A stretch of DNA of 64,000 bases from the human T2T-CHM13v2.0 reference genome, Homo sapiens. The translations under genes were made by a program, and so were the position numbers. The notes beneath the pieces are model-generated. The model worked only from the letters and a program-made list of their open reading frames with translations, was not told where the DNA came from and searched no databases. Of the stretch, positions 9,679-36,816 are shown one piece after another. Position 1 is the stretch's first letter, and every line of letters starts with the position of its first letter. The stretch lies in NCBI RefSeq assembly GCF_009914755.1, contig NC_060936.1. One strand, 5' to 3'.

Positions 9679-9772
9679 TTTATCATCGTTGACTCTTTGC
9701 AAAGGAAAAACTACAAGATGTTTTGGATTAACCGGCTGCAGAGGGTCAAGGCTTCTGCTTAGTTTTTTCTAG
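9679..9772 (+). CDS. ETNK1: Alternative terminal exon of short ETNK1 isoform (SLSSLTLCKGKTTRCFGLTGCRGSRLLLSFF*)
   Basis: tttctttatatttgcag acceptor 190 nt after exon 2; reads in frame to TAG 9770-9772; ATTAAA at 9856; peptide matches my recollection of the short isoform C-terminus. Confidence 0.8.
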
Positions 9773-10058
9773 TTAGTGTTTGAGTTGAAGTGTTATACAT
9801 TTCTTACTGCCGATTGCTTATTACTTAATTGTTCATGTTTTCAGAGTTCTTGCCTATTAAAATTTTATTAATTTGGTTAACAATTCTTTGTTCTTTACGT
9901 TGTTCATTATTTAATTTAATATATTATGTTTTCTATAAAGAATAATGTCATATATGCTTGATCATTTTTCCAAAATTGCCAGCTTTAAAAATTCTCTTTC
10001 TGCTCTTGAAAACTCTAGAAAATGGTCTGGATTTGAAAACAGCATTCATAGGTTAGAC

Positions 10059-10391
10059 CAGCAGTTCGCAACCATTTTGGTCTCAAGACCTCTTTATAGC
10101 TCTTTGGGCTCTTTGTTTTAATATTTGATTAATGTTTATCAATATTTACCATATTAGATATTAAAACAAATTTTTTAGAATACAAGAATATCAAGTACAT
10201 GTCCTGTTAGCTATCATTGTGATGAAATTATCACATATCATATAACCTCTTGAAAGGTACACTGTACACTTGTGAAAGAGTGAGAATGAGAAAGGTAAAT
10301 AACGTCTTGTGAAAATAGTTTCAACTTTACAAAGCTCCTGAAAGGATTTCGGATGGCCCGGGGCTCCCTGGATCATAGGTTAAGAATTGCT
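10059..10391. mobile_element. hAT-Charlie non-autonomous element
   Basis: cagcagttcgcaa...ttaagaattgct degenerate TIRs; ends resemble the element at 46947. Confidence 0.6.
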
Positions 10392-11039
10392 AAGTTAATA
10401 CACTGACAAAAATGGAATGTACCAGTAACACTTATCTATTGTAAACCTGTATCAAATAATATATTAAAATATTTTGTCATAGAAATCTGTTCAAACCCTA
10501 GTTTTTAGCCATCACATATATTTTCTTCTTTTACATGAGTCTAGTCTTTAGATGTATTAAAAGATTCTGATTAATACATTTGTGTTTACTGTGTGTCAAT
10601 TGTTTTGTGGTCTTTAGGCTTGCATGTATTTATAAATCCTCAATCTTGTTCACAATGGTTGACAAATACCTATATAACAGCATTAAAAATTAATAGATGC
10701 ATAAATTGGATCCCCCCAAAGCTGGTTTTGTATATATACAAAAACATATTTCATGAAGTTCCTAGAGAAGGGCCACATGAGTTTCCTTGTAACTAAAGCA
10801 GAGAGTAAAACATGATTGATCTATTTCAGTAACCTCAAATAGAAACAGTAAAATAATTATAGTTTTTGATCAAGAACAGTGAAGGTTTGTCAAGGCTGAC
10901 TTTGGTATTTGATACAATGTTATAAACATGTTTTCAGTAAAAATATCCTTTTCTATACTTTTTGGTTAGATCTACTTACTTATTATTTCTTTCCCAAATG
11001 CCAAAGCCTTTGTTTATTTTTTCTCTACTTAGATCTTTT

Positions 11040-26526: not shown

Positions 26527-26669
26527 GTTCCTAAGTGATATCCCAAGCTCTCAGATTCTCCAGGAAGAGATGACTTGGATGAAGGAGATTCTTTCCAACC
26601 TGGGCTCACCTGTTGTGCTTTGCCATAATGACCTATTGTGTAAGAATATAATCTACAATGAGAAACAAG
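26527..26669 (+). CDS. ETNK1: ETNK1 coding exon 4, Brenner phosphotransferase motif (CHNDLLCKNII)
   Basis: actaaaag acceptor, AAG|GTAGGT donor; 143 nt; frame continuous with exons 3 and 5. Confidence 0.96.
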
Positions 26670-31555: not shown

Positions 31556-34009
31556 GCCTCTACCTGCTCTCACCATGTCAGTTGACAGGACTCAGGACAT
31601 GGGAGAAGAGTGAGCTTCCTTTCTGAAGTTGATGGTAGCTGTCAAGATTTTTGAAAAGTTAGTGCCAGGAATTAGGTGATTGGTAAGCAGCGGCCCATTC
31701 CTTGCCTTCAGTGAAATGACATCCTGAAAAGGTAAGAAAAGAATACTTAATGATATGGTGATAGAATTTGATATATAATAAGGAAACCAAAAGCAGCAGT
31801 TCTTGCTCCAGAACTATAGGAATTATCAGTCATCTTTTAAATCAATCATTAATTTAATAGACTTTATATTAAGCAGAATAAATTGTAATATTGCCTATGA
31901 CTAACTTCAAATCTAATATTTTAATTTCAACTAATCATTTAACTACTGACATCAAGAAATTACTAAAGCTGTTGAGATTTCTATCTCATGTCTTGATGTT
32001 CTCTCAGAATGTTTATTGGTCTCATGACTTTTGGTGACTTTCATTTCTCCTCCTGTCCCCATTTCTTCATAAAAGCTCATGTAAATACCTAATATTTAAC
32101 TTTAAATTTCAGTAATGGCAATCACTGTTTATTTTCTCTGTCAGCACAATACAAGAAGCTGATTTACAGCTGTTTAAGGAAATACAAATGAGTGGAAGAA
32201 AAGGAAAGCTTTTTCTGGGAATTAAAGAGTAAATCAGGTTTTGTTTTATTTTGCTTTGTTTTAAGAGTTCTATACAATATAAATAGAAAATGGGTGAGTC
32301 CCCATAGTCACTTGTTTGGCTCTAAATCTTATCCATTCTATTATTACTCCTGAGAAAGCTTTGTAGTTGTCATGTTACTCATGTTTTAATGACTGAGAAG
32401 AGTTTTTTCATTGGTACTTTTTAAAAATTTAAATAAATACAAATTGATTTTTGTGTTTGGTAAACTATGTTTTCTAGGGTGGTGTTTTTAAATGTAGTTT
32501 AATTTTTAACTCTGTTTTAATTTGTATTCTCAACCACTAGTTAGCAGAAAATAAAATATCTGTAAGTCAGATAATAAAAAACTTAAATGAACTGTAAAAA
32601 CCTGAAGTTATGAAGAAAGAGTGACCTAATATAGGTACTAGTTTGTTTGTTTTTTCATTCATTCATTCTGGCCCACTGTGTTCAGTCTTGTACTTGAATA
32701 AAAATGTCAGAAACACCACACTTTTTTCTTTAGTTTTTCATGCTTTTTTGTCTTTTCCCCTCCCCCAGCAAATGTGTTATTGTGTGTCAGCATTTTCTGC
32801 AAACTTCATTTTTTCTACTAGCATTTAAATATTTCCTGTGTCCTAGGGATTGCTCTGTGGATTGCAGGATAAAAGAGGGAAGGGACCCTAGTGCCCCTCC
32901 AGGAGGCTGTGTATCTTGTAGTGGAGGAGTCCAATCACTGAACAGATACTTACATTTAGAATGATGAGTGCTCTGGTGAAGGGGTACAGAGTACTACAGG
33001 ACACCAGCGTGAAGATTAAAGGGAAAGTGTTTCAGACTAGAATACTCCCTGTCTTTTTCTGTATAAAATAGAAAACATTTTGCTAACATTAGTAGGATTA
33101 TAGTTACTTTTCGTATCGTTCTCTTCGAACCTGCCTAACATTGCAGAGCAAGTAGGGTGAGTTGGAAAGATTTTTCAGGTTCTCATATTGACTATTTTGC
33201 TTTTCATTTTTATTCCTTTCTCCTAACAACAAAATAAAGGAATTCAGACAAACATGTCATGTGATAATTATATAGCCTTGGGTAATACATTATTATTTTT
33301 TAGTTTTAAAGTACTTTAAAAATTGGCAGAGTATTTTTAGTATACTAAGATTTGAACAGTTTAACCAGTAGTGTCGGGATTTGATTACGCTGATAAAGAT
33401 ATGCAAGAAATAAAGTAATAAAAGACAAAATGTAGGTTTGGAAAATTCAAATTGTAGTTTTATCCATTAATCATATACTTTACTTTGTGCTTGTCATTGT
33501 GATAATTACATAAAGATAAATAAAATAACACACCTAGCCCTTAAAGTAGTAGTTCTTTACTTTTTAAAGGTCAGGGGTCCCTTGAGAATCTGAAAAATTG
33601 AGAATCTCTTCCTAAGAAAGTGCACATACACATAAAATTTTAGGGAATATTCTAGTTGTCTTTTCATCCTTGAAACCCCAATTAAAAATTCATGTCTTAA
33701 AGAACTGAGATGATGATCATGCTATATGAGCTAGTTAATTATTAATGCTGATGTGGATATTCGTTTAAATAAAGCGAAATTTTAGAAATCAGAAGTTAAA
33801 TTTATAGAAGGAAAAAGTATATTTTCTGTTGTTAGGAAAGCATTTTCCAGTAATTTGATTTTTCTGGCACCCTAACTAAGGGAAGTTGGCTTTTTAAATT
33901 TTACTTTGTTGCAGAAGATTAAATTTAAGGTTGAGTTCCACTTTGTTTGCAATAGTTTGAAAAAGAATAGTTAATGCAGATTTTTTTTTTAAATTTTTTT
34001 CCTTTTAAG

Positions 34010-34065
34010 CTTTGTGTCTTGTACAATGTGAGTTTGCCAAATTTTCTTCATCTGCTACAGATTAG
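34010..34065 (+). other. Candidate alternative cassette / poison (micro)exon complex in ETNK1 intron 4
   Basis: Acceptors at AG 34008-9 and AG 34059-60; donors AAT|GTGAGT (34028) and TAG|GTATGC (34066); in-frame TAG 34063-65. Confidence 0.55.
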
Positions 34066-35200
34066 GTATGCCATTGTTGCTGCCATGTGGCGGCGCACCC
34101 CGTGCTTCTTAAACGCACTGACTGGAGGTTTATCGCATCACTTGTTCACATGCACGGAGCCTGGTAACAGCCTCATCTGTATCTTGTTAGCTTCATTTTC
34201 TTATTTTTAAAATTTCATTATTTATAAACTCAACATAGCATTTAAAAATAAAGGCTAGTTTTAATTAATTAATGTTACTACAAAAAGTCATTGCTAAAAT
34301 TTTCATAGTGAAACAGATTTTAACTTTTGTTAAAATGTGCTATGCTTTAATTAAATTGTATTTACTCTACAAGCAGGGATGTTTTACCTGCCATTTTAAC
34401 TGTATTTGCCAAATTCTAAATATAATTTTGAAAATTGAAATTGAAGCTTATGTTTATGTGGCAAAAGTAAGCTTCAGGACTGGGCTGTGTATTTTTATTG
34501 GCATGTAACAGTTAATATGAGCTCTACAAGAATTTGTTTTTAAGGAGCTAAAGCTATCAACAGCTGCAGATTTAAAAAATTATATATTAAAACTGTTAGG
34601 TTAGCTCAGTTGTACAACTTAGTGAATCTTGTATCCTGAGTTTCTGAAGGCTGGTGGATAGGTATCTCTGAAATCATTGTGTTTTAGTCTTTTTACTGAT
34701 AGTTTTGTATAGGGAATTCATCTTCTCTTTTAAAATAACTTTTTTCCTTTAATTTATTTCTATTACTTATTGTACATAAATTTTAAAATAAAAAAATAAA
34801 AGAAAAAAAGTCACTTGTCTATCACCTGTTAATAGTTTAAACATTTTGGTTTATTTCCATTCATCCTTCCCCCCCATGCATTATTTACATATTTTTTTTT
34901 CTCTGTAGGCATATTTTAATTTGGATCACAGTTTACTACTTAGTATCTCCTTTTCATGACATTTGTAATTTCCCTGGTCATTATTTTTGAAAATGAGATT
35001 TCTTCATGGTTTTATTTCATTTTATTTTCATGCCTGTGAGTATTTTATCATGATGGTTGTCTTCACTCTCCTACTCCCAATGATTCCTAGAAAAGAAACT
35101 TTAAAACATGTTTCTACTTCCCATTCTGCAGTTTAGTAAAATGATTTGGTTAACTCTTAAAACTTTTTGTGGAATAATGTTCTGTGAATTCAAGTATACA

Positions 35201-35290
35201 AGGCAGGAGGATCACTTCAGGCCAGGAGTTCCATACCAGCTTGGGCAACATAGCAAGACCCCGTCTCTACAAAAAACAAAAAGAGAAAAA
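35201..35290 (+). mobile_element. Alu/FLAM fragment
   Basis: aggcaggaggatcactt...gaccccgtctctac + A tail. Confidence 0.75.
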
Positions 35291-36732
35291 AATATATAAT
35301 ACTTGAGGTAGTTGAATTGCCGTGATTTATTGTCACCAATATTTTTAAATCTTATATTTATTATAATAATACACATTACATTTTTATAACTGGGTTATAA
35401 CATTGATTATTCTCACTTATTCTAGATGTGACTTATTTAAATAAGTTTAGAATTATATATTAAATACAATTATATTAAAAACATTTTTGCTTTTATGTAA
35501 AACACTATTTGCCATGACATTTTTTGTCACGTAATTTTGTTTTTCTTTGTGTTTGAATATGATCAAATACTTCCCAAAATTAAACTTACAAATGTATATC
35601 AACATATTATAATTCAAAAGCTGTTTTTATTTGGGAAATAAATAACAATGTGTAAAGACCGGGAATTTGTTCTCCTACCTAAGCCTGATGATTAAAAGAC
35701 AGTGTAACTATGCAGGTGTTAAACATTTTCTATATTCTTACAGCCATCTCTGTTCATATATCCATTTTTAACTCCACGCCCCTGTAAGCCTTTGAGTTTG
35801 TGATCCCTGGTGAAGACAGTGACCCACATTGATTTTTTTTTTTTAAGGTTTCTCTCTCTCTTTTTTGCTTTTTCTCTCGAATATAGGACCTATATCTTTG
35901 TTAAGGCAAATCCTTTATAATATTCATTACTCAAAAGTTAAAAGTTCCTGAGTAGTAGTATGAAAGAACTAGATTATCTTTGGAGAGTTATAATGACATG
36001 CCTATATATGTAGCAGTAATTTAGAATAGGCATCTATTTAGCTTATGTGAAAATTTCTCACGTTTATAAACGTTAAAAGAAACCATACTTTTGCTTTTTG
36101 TAAGATAAAACCACCACCTTATTGCACCGTAATGCTGCTCAGATATGGAAACCTTGGTTAGGTAGTATTACAGGAAAATGTAAGCATATGATAACAACTA
36201 ACTTCTTGTTAGTGATCTTACATTGCTCAGCAAGTATAGCATTATTGCAAGATTTACAGAATTCAGGTCTTTAAAAGTTTATATTTTATTTCCATATGTA
36301 GATAAGCTTGTCAGTTTACTGTTGGAGTATCATAAAGTTTTTGTTAAAATTACACAGATTATTAGTAATTTCCAAAGATAAAAATTATGTTTCTAATTAA
36401 ACTTGAATTTTTAAGTAACTGATGCCCCCATGTGGCAAAGGATTTATTTTGCTTTTGCTTAAACTTGGAGAATGACTGTCTTTTCATTTTTCTTTAAAAA
36501 AGTGGACATTAGTGTTTATAAAGAAGCTGTTGACCAAGAGACATAATTTGAATTTTGTAAAGCTCATTGCCATAAAATTCACAGCCCCTTACCCTGTATT
36601 GTCTCACAAGTGCATGTAATCAAGCACGTACAATGAGACAAAATATTGGAAGCTATTTAATTACAAATAGCATAGGGATTTTCTGATCTTATATGTGATT
36701 TCTTAATGTCTTTGTTTTTGTGTCTCACATAG

Positions 36733-36816
36733 GTGATGTACAGTTCATTGATTATGAATATTCTGGATACAACTACCTGGCATATGATATTGGAAATCAT
36801 TTCAATGAATTTGCAG
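36733..36816 (+). CDS. ETNK1: ETNK1 coding exon 5, choline/ethanolamine kinase motif (IDYEYSGYNYLAYDIGNHFNEF)
   Basis: tgtctcacatag acceptor, CAG|GTATAA donor; 84 nt, phase 1-1; not in the ORF track, translated by hand. Confidence 0.97.

What the first reader, a model, noticed from the sequence alone, without database searches (positions are those of the whole stretch)
34041..34071. Candidate 5-nt poison microexon (ATTAG) between the two catalytic-motif exons of ETNK1
Seen: attttcttcatctgctacAG|ATTAG|GTatgc, i.e. a polypyrimidine tract, a CAG acceptor, 5 nt (34061-34065) and a good donor. Exon 4 ends in phase 1 (CAA G), so inclusion reads GAT TAG: an immediate stop with several downstream junctions. 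Established: such stops trigger NMD, and a UGC between the pyrimidine tract and the AG (here TGC at 34053-55) is the SRRM3/SRRM4 neural microexon signature. Exons this short are routinely missed by aligners. Inference: a splicing-NMD off-switch for the first step of the CDP-ethanolamine (Kennedy) pathway.
Basis: partly seen in the sequence, partly recalled or inferred. Interest (0 to 1): 0.85.

Follow-up and report, generated by a model that had tools for sequence, protein, structure and literature searches.

The report
Start of annotated ETNK1 poison exon
The five bases flagged as a tiny hidden exon are the first five bases of a 103-base alternative ETNK1 exon that RefSeq already annotates and that carries the same early stop codon, so the finding is largely ordinary and the 5-base form remains unproven.

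Summary
The sequence is as described: a pyrimidine-rich tract, CAG, ATTAG (34061-34065), then GT. Exon 4 ends in phase 1, so anything spliced in at 34061 reads an Asp codon and then TAG.

The hub annotation shows that 34061 is already the acceptor of a RefSeq alternative exon, 34061-34163. It has its own donor at 34164. That 103-nt exon carries the same stop, so the poison logic belongs to an annotated exon.

The GT at 34066 is an internal donor-like site. It is no stronger than chance sites:
- Its U1 pairing energy is -5.6 kcal/mol, weaker than all 6 constitutive ETNK1 donors in the window.
- Comparable microexon-like patterns occur 21 times on the + strand and 15 times on the - strand.
- The TGC motif precedes 49 of 188 pyrimidine-rich YAG sites.

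The closest known class is the EJC-repressed cryptic microexon hosted by an annotated exon. Only 5.3% of 545 such candidates were included, even after eIF4A3 knockdown.

ETNK1 is not an NMD target at gene level in HeLa. No paper in ten searches describes this exon. Conservation and RNA-seq could not be tested.

Verdict: already annotated, low interest.

The parts
26527..26669 (+). ETNK1 exon 4 of the selected transcript; it ends in phase 1 (one base into a codon)
   Evidence: Frame from translation of the annotated coding exons. Pfam PF01633 match, E 5.3e-10.
34041..34058 (+). Pyrimidine-rich tract before the acceptor, including TGC at 34053-34055
   Evidence: 13 of 16 pyrimidines at -20..-5. 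Only 85 of 1983 YAG sites in the window reach 13. TGC base rate is 49 of 188 among pyrimidine-rich YAG sites.
34059..34060 (+). AG acceptor shared by the annotated 103-nt exon and the proposed 5-nt exon
   Evidence: Sequence. The hub annotation lists exon 34061-34163 in another ETNK1 transcript.
34061..34065 (+). ATTAG: the proposed 5-nt microexon, which is the first five bases of the annotated exon; TAG at 34063-34065 is in frame
34066..34071 (+). Internal 5' splice-site-like GTATGC, 5 nt into the annotated exon
   Evidence: U1 duplex energy -5.6 kcal/mol, top 7.6% of 3910 GTs. It is one of the two best donors within about 430 nt after the acceptor.
34061..34163 (+). RefSeq-annotated 103-nt alternative exon of ETNK1, with a premature stop at its codon 2 and a length that is not a multiple of 3
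   Evidence: Hub annotation. AG before and GT after. Translation. Single copy in the genome.
34164..34169 (+). Donor of the annotated exon (GTAACA after CTG)
   Evidence: U1 duplex energy -5.0 kcal/mol, top 11.8% of GTs.
34080..34165 (.). CpG-dense, GC-rich core of the annotated exon
   Evidence: 6 CpG, observed/expected 0.86, GC 0.57. The 500-nt flanks have observed/expected 0.19 and 0, and GC 0.29-0.30. Only 0.8% of 100-nt windows hold 6 or more CpG.
36733..36816 (+). ETNK1 exon 5, the downstream partner
   Evidence: Pfam PF01633 match, E 4.5e-11. Sequence.

Best explanation
ATTAG is not an exon of its own. It is the 5' end of a 103-nt alternative ETNK1 exon (34061-34163) that RefSeq already annotates.

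When this exon is spliced in after exon 4, the last G of exon 4 plus AT makes an Asp codon and TAG follows. The message therefore ends before the second half of the kinase domain. The stop lies 98 nt before the next junction, and three more junctions follow. By the standard 50-55-nt rule this predicts an NMD substrate or, if translated, a truncated inactive protein.

The GT at 34066 is an internal donor-like site of ordinary strength. Such sites near exon starts are common and are normally kept silent. If it is used at all, the route would be two-step. The 103-nt exon is first defined by its own donor at 34164 and joined to exon 4. The internal GT then competes on the part-spliced RNA, where the exon junction complex represses it.

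I judge the 103-nt exon more likely (about 60:40) to be a low-flux unproductive by-product than a dedicated switch.

Shown here: the sequence, the frame, the stop and the annotation. Inferred: NMD sensitivity, the two-step route and the low flux.
For: - The annotation lists exon 34061-34163, and the sequence has AG before it and GT after it.
- The stop and frame were computed for both the 5-nt and the 103-nt forms.
- The internal GT (-5.6 kcal/mol) and the annotated donor (-5.0) are the two best donors in the 430 nt after the acceptor. Both are weaker than all six constitutive donors, which range from -6.8 to -12.2.
- Donor-like GTs of this strength are common: 26 of 416 GTs inside the selected transcript's exons reach -5.6.
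- Exons 5 and 6 rebuild stronger donor-like sites exactly at their starts after splicing (-8.0, and -7.1/-7.3). Both are nevertheless exons of the selected transcript.
- Blazquez et al. 2018 (PMC6224609, passages read) define this class as an internal 5' splice site within the first 15 nt of an annotated exon. They show it needs the host exon's canonical donor. They show EJC repression, and report inclusion for only 5.3% of 545 candidates after eIF4A3 knockdown.
- Li et al. 2015 (PMC4317164, passages) cite steric hindrance as a barrier to very short exons.
- ETNK1 gene-level NMD scores in HeLa are non-significant: UPF1_FDR 0.75, meta_meta 0.746 (Colombo 2017 Table S2).
Against: - The internal donor is slightly better than the annotated one by U1 pairing (-5.6 against -5.0), so some use of it cannot be excluded.
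- Aligners miss exons under 6 nt. Li 2015 discarded them, so absence from published tables is weak evidence.
- I could not see which RefSeq transcript holds the exon, whether it is a curated or a predicted model, or which exons it joins.
- The exon's CpG density (6 CpG, observed/expected 0.82, against 0.22 for the window), in a single-copy stretch, is unexplained. It could mean constraint, which would favour a regulated function over noise.
- HeLa gene-level data say nothing about neurons or about individual isoforms.
Confidence: 0.78

Rival explanations
1. The 5-nt form exists as a minor two-step product. After exon 4 is joined to the 103-nt exon, the GT at 34066 is sometimes chosen over 34164, leaving only ATTAG in the mRNA. 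This would rise when EJC occupancy is low. Its consequence (Asp, then stop) is the same as for the 103-nt form.
For: The site fits the structural definition of a putative cryptic microexon, with an internal 5' splice site at +5 of an annotated exon. The internal donor is not weaker than the host exon's donor. A reporter with an internal site at +6 gave a 6-nt microexon on part-spliced RNA.
Against: Only 5.3% of 545 candidates responded, even to eIF4A3 knockdown. ETNK1 is absent from the 3 supplementary files held for that paper. No junction from 34066 appears in the one ETNK1 row of Kovalak 2021 Table S3, which covers HEK293 EJC-bound RNA. That table lists only conserved unannotated junctions found by STAR.
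Confidence: 0.15
2. One reading: ATTAG is a neural, SRRM3/4-dependent poison microexon, defined on the pre-mRNA through the UGC upstream of the AG. It would act as a splicing-NMD off-switch for ethanolamine kinase.
For: The length of 5 nt is within 3-27. A UGC lies between the pyrimidine tract and the AG. UGC is found in 74-79% of SRRM3/4-dependent microexons (bioRxiv 10.1101/2024.09.17.613571, passages). The frame gives an immediate stop.
Against: UGC is as common as 49 of 188 at comparable sites in this window. The donor is weaker than all six constitutive donors, where the class has stronger ones. Only 26 AG-free bases precede the AG, so a long branch point-AG distance is unlikely. No UCUCUC-type element lies in the 70 nt upstream. 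The length is not a multiple of 3. The three papers holding both ETNK1 and SRRM4 were seen only as search listings, and by title and abstract none concerns ETNK1 splicing. ETNK1 plus 'microexon' gave 0 papers.
Confidence: 0.03
3. The 103-nt exon is a conserved, regulated poison exon that tunes ETNK1 output (AS-NMD). The ATTAG and GT are simply part of it.
For: The exon is a CpG-dense, GC-rich, single-copy island in an AT-rich, CpG-poor intron. CpG retention of this kind is what purifying selection would leave. The same intron holds a second unproductive splice: a junction from 32238 to exon 5, seen only in EJC-bound RNA, with a conserved donor of phyloP mean 1.14.
Against: No conservation data could be obtained here. 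Both of its donors are weak. There is no gene-level NMD response in HeLa. ETNK1 is absent from the held supplements of three AS-NMD or NMD surveys and appears in Kovalak's only for the other junction. There is no similarity in the equivalent ETNK2 intron. No paper describes it.
Confidence: 0.3
4. The GT at 34066 is a U1-binding decoy. By sitting 5 nt from the acceptor, bound U1 would hinder U2AF at the AG and keep inclusion of the poison exon low.
For: Only two bases separate the AG from the stretch that would pair with U1. Steric interference between closely spaced splice sites is the explanation cited for skipping of very short exons (Li 2015 passages).
Against: Nothing here tests it. The site's U1 pairing is ordinary, in the top 7.6% of GTs.
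Confidence: 0.08

Closest known systems
RefSeq-annotated alternative exon 34061-34163 of ETNK1 (hub annotation, RS_2025_08)
   Same: It has the identical acceptor and the identical first five bases. It gives the identical in-frame TAG after exon 4.
   Different: It uses the donor at 34164, not 34066, so it is 103 nt long rather than 5 nt.
[quoted passage not shown] 2018, PMC6224609)
   Same: An internal 5' splice-site-like GT lies within the first 15 nt of a longer annotated exon. The microexon would arise in a second splicing step on part-spliced RNA.
   Different: The host exon here is itself a rare alternative exon with a weak donor. No inclusion data exist for ETNK1.
SRRM3/4 (nSR100)-dependent neural microexons
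   Same: The length falls in the 3-27 nt range, and a UGC lies between the pyrimidine tract and the AG.
   Different: The donor is weak. The AG-free zone is short. There is no UCUCUC element. The length is not a multiple of 3. The effect is a stop codon, not a few inserted residues.
Poison cassette exons in AS-NMD, for example those of TRA2B and U2AF2 shown in Kovalak et al. 2021 (PMC8091538)
   Same: An alternative internal exon introduces a premature stop more than 55 nt upstream of a junction.
   Different: No evidence here of conservation, regulation or NMD sensitivity. The ETNK1 gene-level NMD response in HeLa is null.
MPC1 4-nt microexon (PMC9929638; search listing and abstract only)
   Same: It is a microexon whose length is not a multiple of 3.
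   Different: It is constitutively included and part of the coding frame. It is not a stop-bearing alternative exon.

Membership tests
SRRM3/4-dependent neural microexon | Exon length 3-27 nt | tested here: met
   5 nt, 34061-34065.
SRRM3/4-dependent neural microexon | UGC between branch point or pyrimidine tract and the AG | tested here: met
   TGC at 34053-34055. The base rate is high: 49 of 188 pyrimidine-rich YAG sites and 362 of 1983 of all YAG sites in the window.
SRRM3/4-dependent neural microexon | 5' splice site stronger than ordinary | tested here: not met
   U1 duplex energy -5.6 kcal/mol, weaker than all 6 constitutive ETNK1 donors in the window, which range from -6.8 to -12.2. MaxEnt scores were not available.
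SRRM3/4-dependent neural microexon | Long branch point-AG distance, with a UCU_CUC...UGC bipartite enhancer | tested here: inconclusive
   An AG at 34032-34033 leaves 26 AG-free bases. No TCTC or CTCT lies in the 70 nt upstream; TCT is present. The branch point was not mapped.
SRRM3/4-dependent neural microexon | Neural inclusion, SRRM3/4 response and vertebrate conservation | not testable with these tools
   No RNA-seq and no vertebrate genomes are on hand. ETNK1 plus 'microexon' gave 0 papers, and ETNK1 plus SRRM4 gave 3 papers seen as listings only.
Cryptic microexon hosted by an annotated exon (EJC-repressed) | Internal 5' splice site within the first 15 nt of a longer annotated exon | tested here: met
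   GT at +5 of exon 34061-34163. Definition.
Cryptic microexon hosted by an annotated exon (EJC-repressed) | Inclusion appears or rises on EJC depletion and depends on the host exon's canonical donor | not testable with these tools
   ETNK1 is absent from the 3 supplementary files held for the paper.
Poison cassette exon (AS-NMD) | Alternative internal exon with AG and GT flanks and an in-frame premature stop | tested here: met
   Annotation.
Poison cassette exon (AS-NMD) | Stop more than 50-55 nt upstream of a later exon junction | tested here: met
   98 nt to the next junction for the 103-nt form. For the 5-nt form, junctions lie at +84, +245 and +319. The 50-55-nt rule itself is recalled.
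Poison cassette exon (AS-NMD) | Isoform stabilised when NMD is inhibited | tested here: inconclusive
   Only gene-level data were seen: ETNK1 UPF1_FDR 0.75, SMG6_FDR 0.82, SMG7_FDR 0.68, meta_meta 0.746 in HeLa. No isoform-level data.
Poison cassette exon (AS-NMD) | Conservation of the exon and its splice sites | not testable with these tools
   CpG retention (observed/expected 0.82) is only a lead. There is no similarity in the ETNK2 intron.

The most novel reading that the evidence does not exclude
ATTAG is really spliced in as a 5-nt stop-bearing microexon that aligners miss. This would happen either in neurons through SRRM3/4 or in any cell through two-step re-splicing of the 103-nt exon when EJC occupancy is low. 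ETNK1 would then have a hidden unproductive isoform that lowers the first step of the CDP-ethanolamine pathway.
Probability: 0.07. Interest if true: 0.45.

Novelty: already known. Interest (0 to 1): 0.12.

Why it matters
ETNK1 catalyses the first step of the CDP-ethanolamine pathway and is recurrently mutated in myeloid neoplasms. A real splicing-NMD control point would therefore be useful to know, and could be targeted with splice-switching oligonucleotides.

The stop-bearing acceptor is already in RefSeq as a 103-nt exon, and the 5-nt form would have the same consequence. The finding therefore adds little unless the 5-nt form proves abundant or regulated.

The more useful open question is whether the annotated, CpG-dense 103-nt exon is conserved and regulated. 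No paper in the held library addresses it.

Tried and rejected
- **RNA gene:** none found. Rfam gave 0 matches over 33000-35200 at E up to 1. ARAGORN found no tRNA. Fold z-scores were -1.04 (+ strand) and -1.47 (- strand).
- **Repeat origin of the exon:** rejected as far as the tool sees. There was 1 match (itself) for 201 nt at E up to 0.001, and for 110 nt at E up to 10. The tool skips very common words.
- **Hidden coding potential:** only short stop-to-stop frames around the exon.
- **Paralogue test:** the roughly 1.2-kb ETNK2 intron between the homologous exons shows only chance matches of 16 nt or less, E 0.098 or higher.
- **Old processed ETNK1 pseudogene on contig C4:** exon 4 is joined directly to exon 5. 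This shows only that the major mRNA lacks an insert.
- **Main-text paper searches, all negative for this exon:**
  - ETNK1 with 'poison exon': 0 papers.
  - ETNK1 with 'microexon': 0.
  - ETNK1 with 'nonsense-mediated': 9.
  - ETNK1 with 'cryptic exon': 4.
  - ETNK1 with UPF1: 3.
  - ETNK1 with SRRM4: 3.
  - ETNK1 with 'alternative splicing' and 'exon': 33, of which 30 were listed.
  - ETNK1 with NMD: 13.
  - Passages were read. All other papers were seen as listings only.
- **Supplement searches for ETNK1:**
  - Li 2015: 0 in 5 files, 1 file not searched.
  - Blazquez 2018: 0 in 3 files.
  - Lim 2020: 0 in 5 files.
  - Karousis 2021: 0 in 2 files.
  - Held files may be cut or incomplete, so these blanks are weak evidence.
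- **Not available:** MaxEntScan scores (no tables), earlier scan findings, vertebrate alignments and RNA-seq.

Full report
**1. Observation.**
- The tract at 34041-34056 holds 13 pyrimidines in 16 bases.
- TGC lies at 34053-34055 and CAG at 34058-34060.
- ATTAG lies at 34061-34065, and GT at 34066-34067 is followed by ATGC.
- The coding exons of the selected transcript translate in a single open frame. The exon at 26527-26669 ends one base into a codon.
- Splicing anything in at 34061 therefore gives an Asp codon followed directly by TAG. I computed this for both the 5-nt and the 103-nt insert.
- The two flanking exons both match the Pfam choline/ethanolamine kinase domain PF01633, at profile positions 137-179 and 183-208 of 300. 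The description 'between two catalytic exons' is therefore fair. The names of the individual motifs are recalled, not tested.

**2. Is it more than chance?** As a bare pattern it is not.
- I scored donors by the duplex energy with the 5' end of U1 snRNA (an 11-nt motif, recalled) over all 3910 GTs on the + strand. The GT at 34066 scores -5.6 kcal/mol, in the top 7.6%.
- The six constitutive ETNK1 donors in the window score -6.8 to -12.2.
- I then counted a comparable pattern: at least 12 of 16 pyrimidines, YAG, 3-27 nt, and a GT at -5.6 or better. It occurs 21 times on the + strand and 15 times on the untranscribed-sense - strand, once each at length 5.
- The TGC, offered as an SRRM3/4 signature, lies at -20..-4 of 362 of 1983 YAG sites, and of 49 of 188 pyrimidine-rich ones.
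- The stop being in frame is a one-in-three event once a TAG|GT donor is present.

**3. What is really there.**
- The sequence has AG before 34061 and GT after 34163, in the context CTG|GTAACA.
- The acceptor is therefore real by annotation. The five bases are the start of a 103-nt alternative exon. That exon already carries the same TAG at its third to fifth bases.
- Its length is not a multiple of 3. The stop lies 98 nt before the exon's own downstream junction, and three more junctions follow.
- By the usual 50-55-nt rule (recalled) the isoform is a predicted NMD substrate.
- Among the 23 GTs in the 430 nt after the acceptor, 34066 (-5.6) and 34164 (-5.0) are the two best.
- I could not see which transcript holds the exon, whether it is curated or predicted, or which exons it joins. 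That it sits between exons 4 and 5 is an inference from its splice signals.

**4. How the 5-nt form could arise, and how likely that is.** Very short exons are hard to define because the complexes at the two splice sites crowd each other (Li et al. 2015, PMC4317164, passages). Here only two bases separate the AG from the stretch that would pair with U1.

The closest described mechanism is in Blazquez et al. 2018 (PMC6224609, passages).
- An internal 5' splice site within the first 15 nt of an annotated exon can yield a 'cryptic microexon' in a second splicing step.
- This happens after the full exon has been defined by its canonical donor and joined to the upstream exon.
- The exon junction complex deposited by the first step represses the internal site.
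- Mutating the canonical donor in their reporter caused whole-exon skipping, not more microexon.
- Of 545 candidates expressed in HeLa, 5.3% were included after eIF4A3 knockdown.

The ETNK1 site meets the structural definition, with a GT at +5 of an annotated exon. ETNK1 is not in the three supplementary files held for that paper.

As an internal control, exons 5 and 6 of the selected transcript rebuild stronger donor-like sites exactly at their starts once spliced (-8.0, and -7.1/-7.3). Both are still exons of the selected transcript. In addition, 26 of 416 GTs inside that transcript's exons reach -5.6. A donor-like GT near an exon start is thus no evidence of use.

**5. The SRRM3/4 reading.** A 2025 preprint (10.1101/2024.09.17.613571, passages) summarises the class.
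- The 5' splice sites are stronger than ordinary.
- The pyrimidine tract and branch point are strong but lie far from the AG.
- There is a bipartite UCU_CUC...UGC enhancer.
- A UGC is present in 57 of 73 highly sensitive and 51 of 71 less sensitive microexons. The motif is also present in some cryptic microexons.

Here the length and the UGC fit. The donor is weak. An AG at 34032-34033 leaves only 26 AG-free bases. No UCUCUC-like run lies in the 70 nt upstream. Membership is not supported. Neural inclusion and conservation could not be tested.

**6. Function.** Nothing found shows that this exon is a switch.
- Colombo et al. 2017 (PMC5238794, Table S2) give ETNK1 gene-level scores of UPF1_FDR 0.75, SMG6_FDR 0.82, SMG7_FDR 0.68 and meta_meta 0.746 in HeLa. 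Total ETNK1 mRNA therefore does not behave as an NMD target there. This argues against a large unproductive flux in that cell type. It says nothing about neurons or about single isoforms.
- Kovalak et al. 2021 (PMC8091538, Table S3) list one ETNK1 junction among conserved unannotated junctions in HEK293 EJC-bound RNA.
  - It runs from a donor at window 32238, inside the other annotated alternative exon 32145-32637, to the exon 5 acceptor.
  - It has raw reads of 1, 2 and 7 in the three EJC libraries, and 0 in six RNA-seq libraries.
  - The resulting 93-nt cassette has an in-frame TGA.
  - Intron 4 does therefore feed some unproductive splicing, but the recorded event is not the one proposed.
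- No junction from 34066 is listed. The table requires conservation and STAR alignment, so the blank is weak evidence.
- ETNK1 is absent from the held supplements of Lim 2020 (5 files), Karousis 2021 (2 files) and Li 2015 (5 of 6 files). Li 2015 discarded exons under 6 nt.

**7. One thing remains unexplained.** The 103-nt exon is a small CpG-dense island.
- It has 6 CpG, observed/expected 0.82 and GC 0.53.
- The flanks have observed/expected 0.19 and 0, with GC about 0.29. The window as a whole has observed/expected 0.22.
- Only 0.8% of 100-nt windows hold 6 or more CpG. Four of the six other stretches with 5 or more CpG overlap stretches that the hub lists as masked repeats.
- This exon is single copy at E up to 10, and it has no Rfam, tRNA or structural signal.
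- CpG retention in a methylated gene body is what purifying selection would leave. I therefore keep about 30% for a conserved, regulated 103-nt poison exon.

**8. Literature.** Ten searches of the held library found no main text describing an ETNK1 poison exon, microexon or NMD isoform (two searches were on mechanism). The only detailed work on ETNK1 RNA processing found concerns intronic polyadenylation at the alternative exon 3 (Neve et al. 2016, PMC4691748, passages). bioRxiv supplements and many journal supplements could not be seen and may list this exon.

**9. Verdict.** The stop-bearing acceptor is already annotated as a 103-nt exon. The 5-nt microexon is at most a minor, EJC-repressed by-product with the same consequence. 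My estimates are about 15% that it is detectable somewhere and about 3% that it is an SRRM3/4-driven switch. Novelty: already known. Interest: low.

Noticed in passing
window 32145-32238 (with 36733): Kovalak 2021 Table S3 lists an unannotated, conserved junction from a weak donor at 32238 (MaxEnt 1.77, phyloP mean 1.14) to the exon 5 acceptor. It has raw reads of 1, 2 and 7 in EJC-bound RNA and 0 in RNA-seq. Together with the annotated acceptor at 32145 this makes a 93-nt cassette with an in-frame TGA, a second unproductive exon in the same intron.
   Followed up: partly
window 34080-34165: The core of the annotated 103-nt exon is CpG dense (6 CpG, observed/expected 0.86, GC 0.57) in an AT-rich, CpG-poor intron. 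It is single copy in the genome. The cause is unexplained and may be constraint.
   Followed up: partly
window 36733 and 38961: Exons 5 and 6 start with GT. After splicing they rebuild strong donor-like sites at the junction (U1 duplex -8.0, and -7.1/-7.3 kcal/mol). This makes them putative recursive-splicing exons in the sense of Blazquez 2018. Skipping exon 5 (84 nt) would stay in frame.
   Followed up: no
L003 (G000:C4:147076548-147079688): An old processed pseudogene of ETNK1. Exons 2-8 lie contiguous at 75-85% identity. There is a TAG inside the exon 4 match and an insertion of about 520 nt within exon 3. Exon 4 is joined directly to exon 5.
   Followed up: partly
window 9679-10578: The alternative terminal exon after exon 2 matches the proximal intronic polyadenylation isoform of ETNK1. 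Neve et al. 2016 (PMC4691748) report that this isoform is favoured in the cytoplasm and depends on nuclear DICER1 and EHMT2. This is a known truncating route, separate from the finding.
   Followed up: partly
window 32238-36732: This interval is 4495 nt in the window (CHM13) but 4497 nt in GRCh38 by the coordinates in Kovalak's table. There is a 2-nt length difference somewhere in the intron, so liftover of 34061 to GRCh38 is uncertain by about 2 nt.
   Followed up: no
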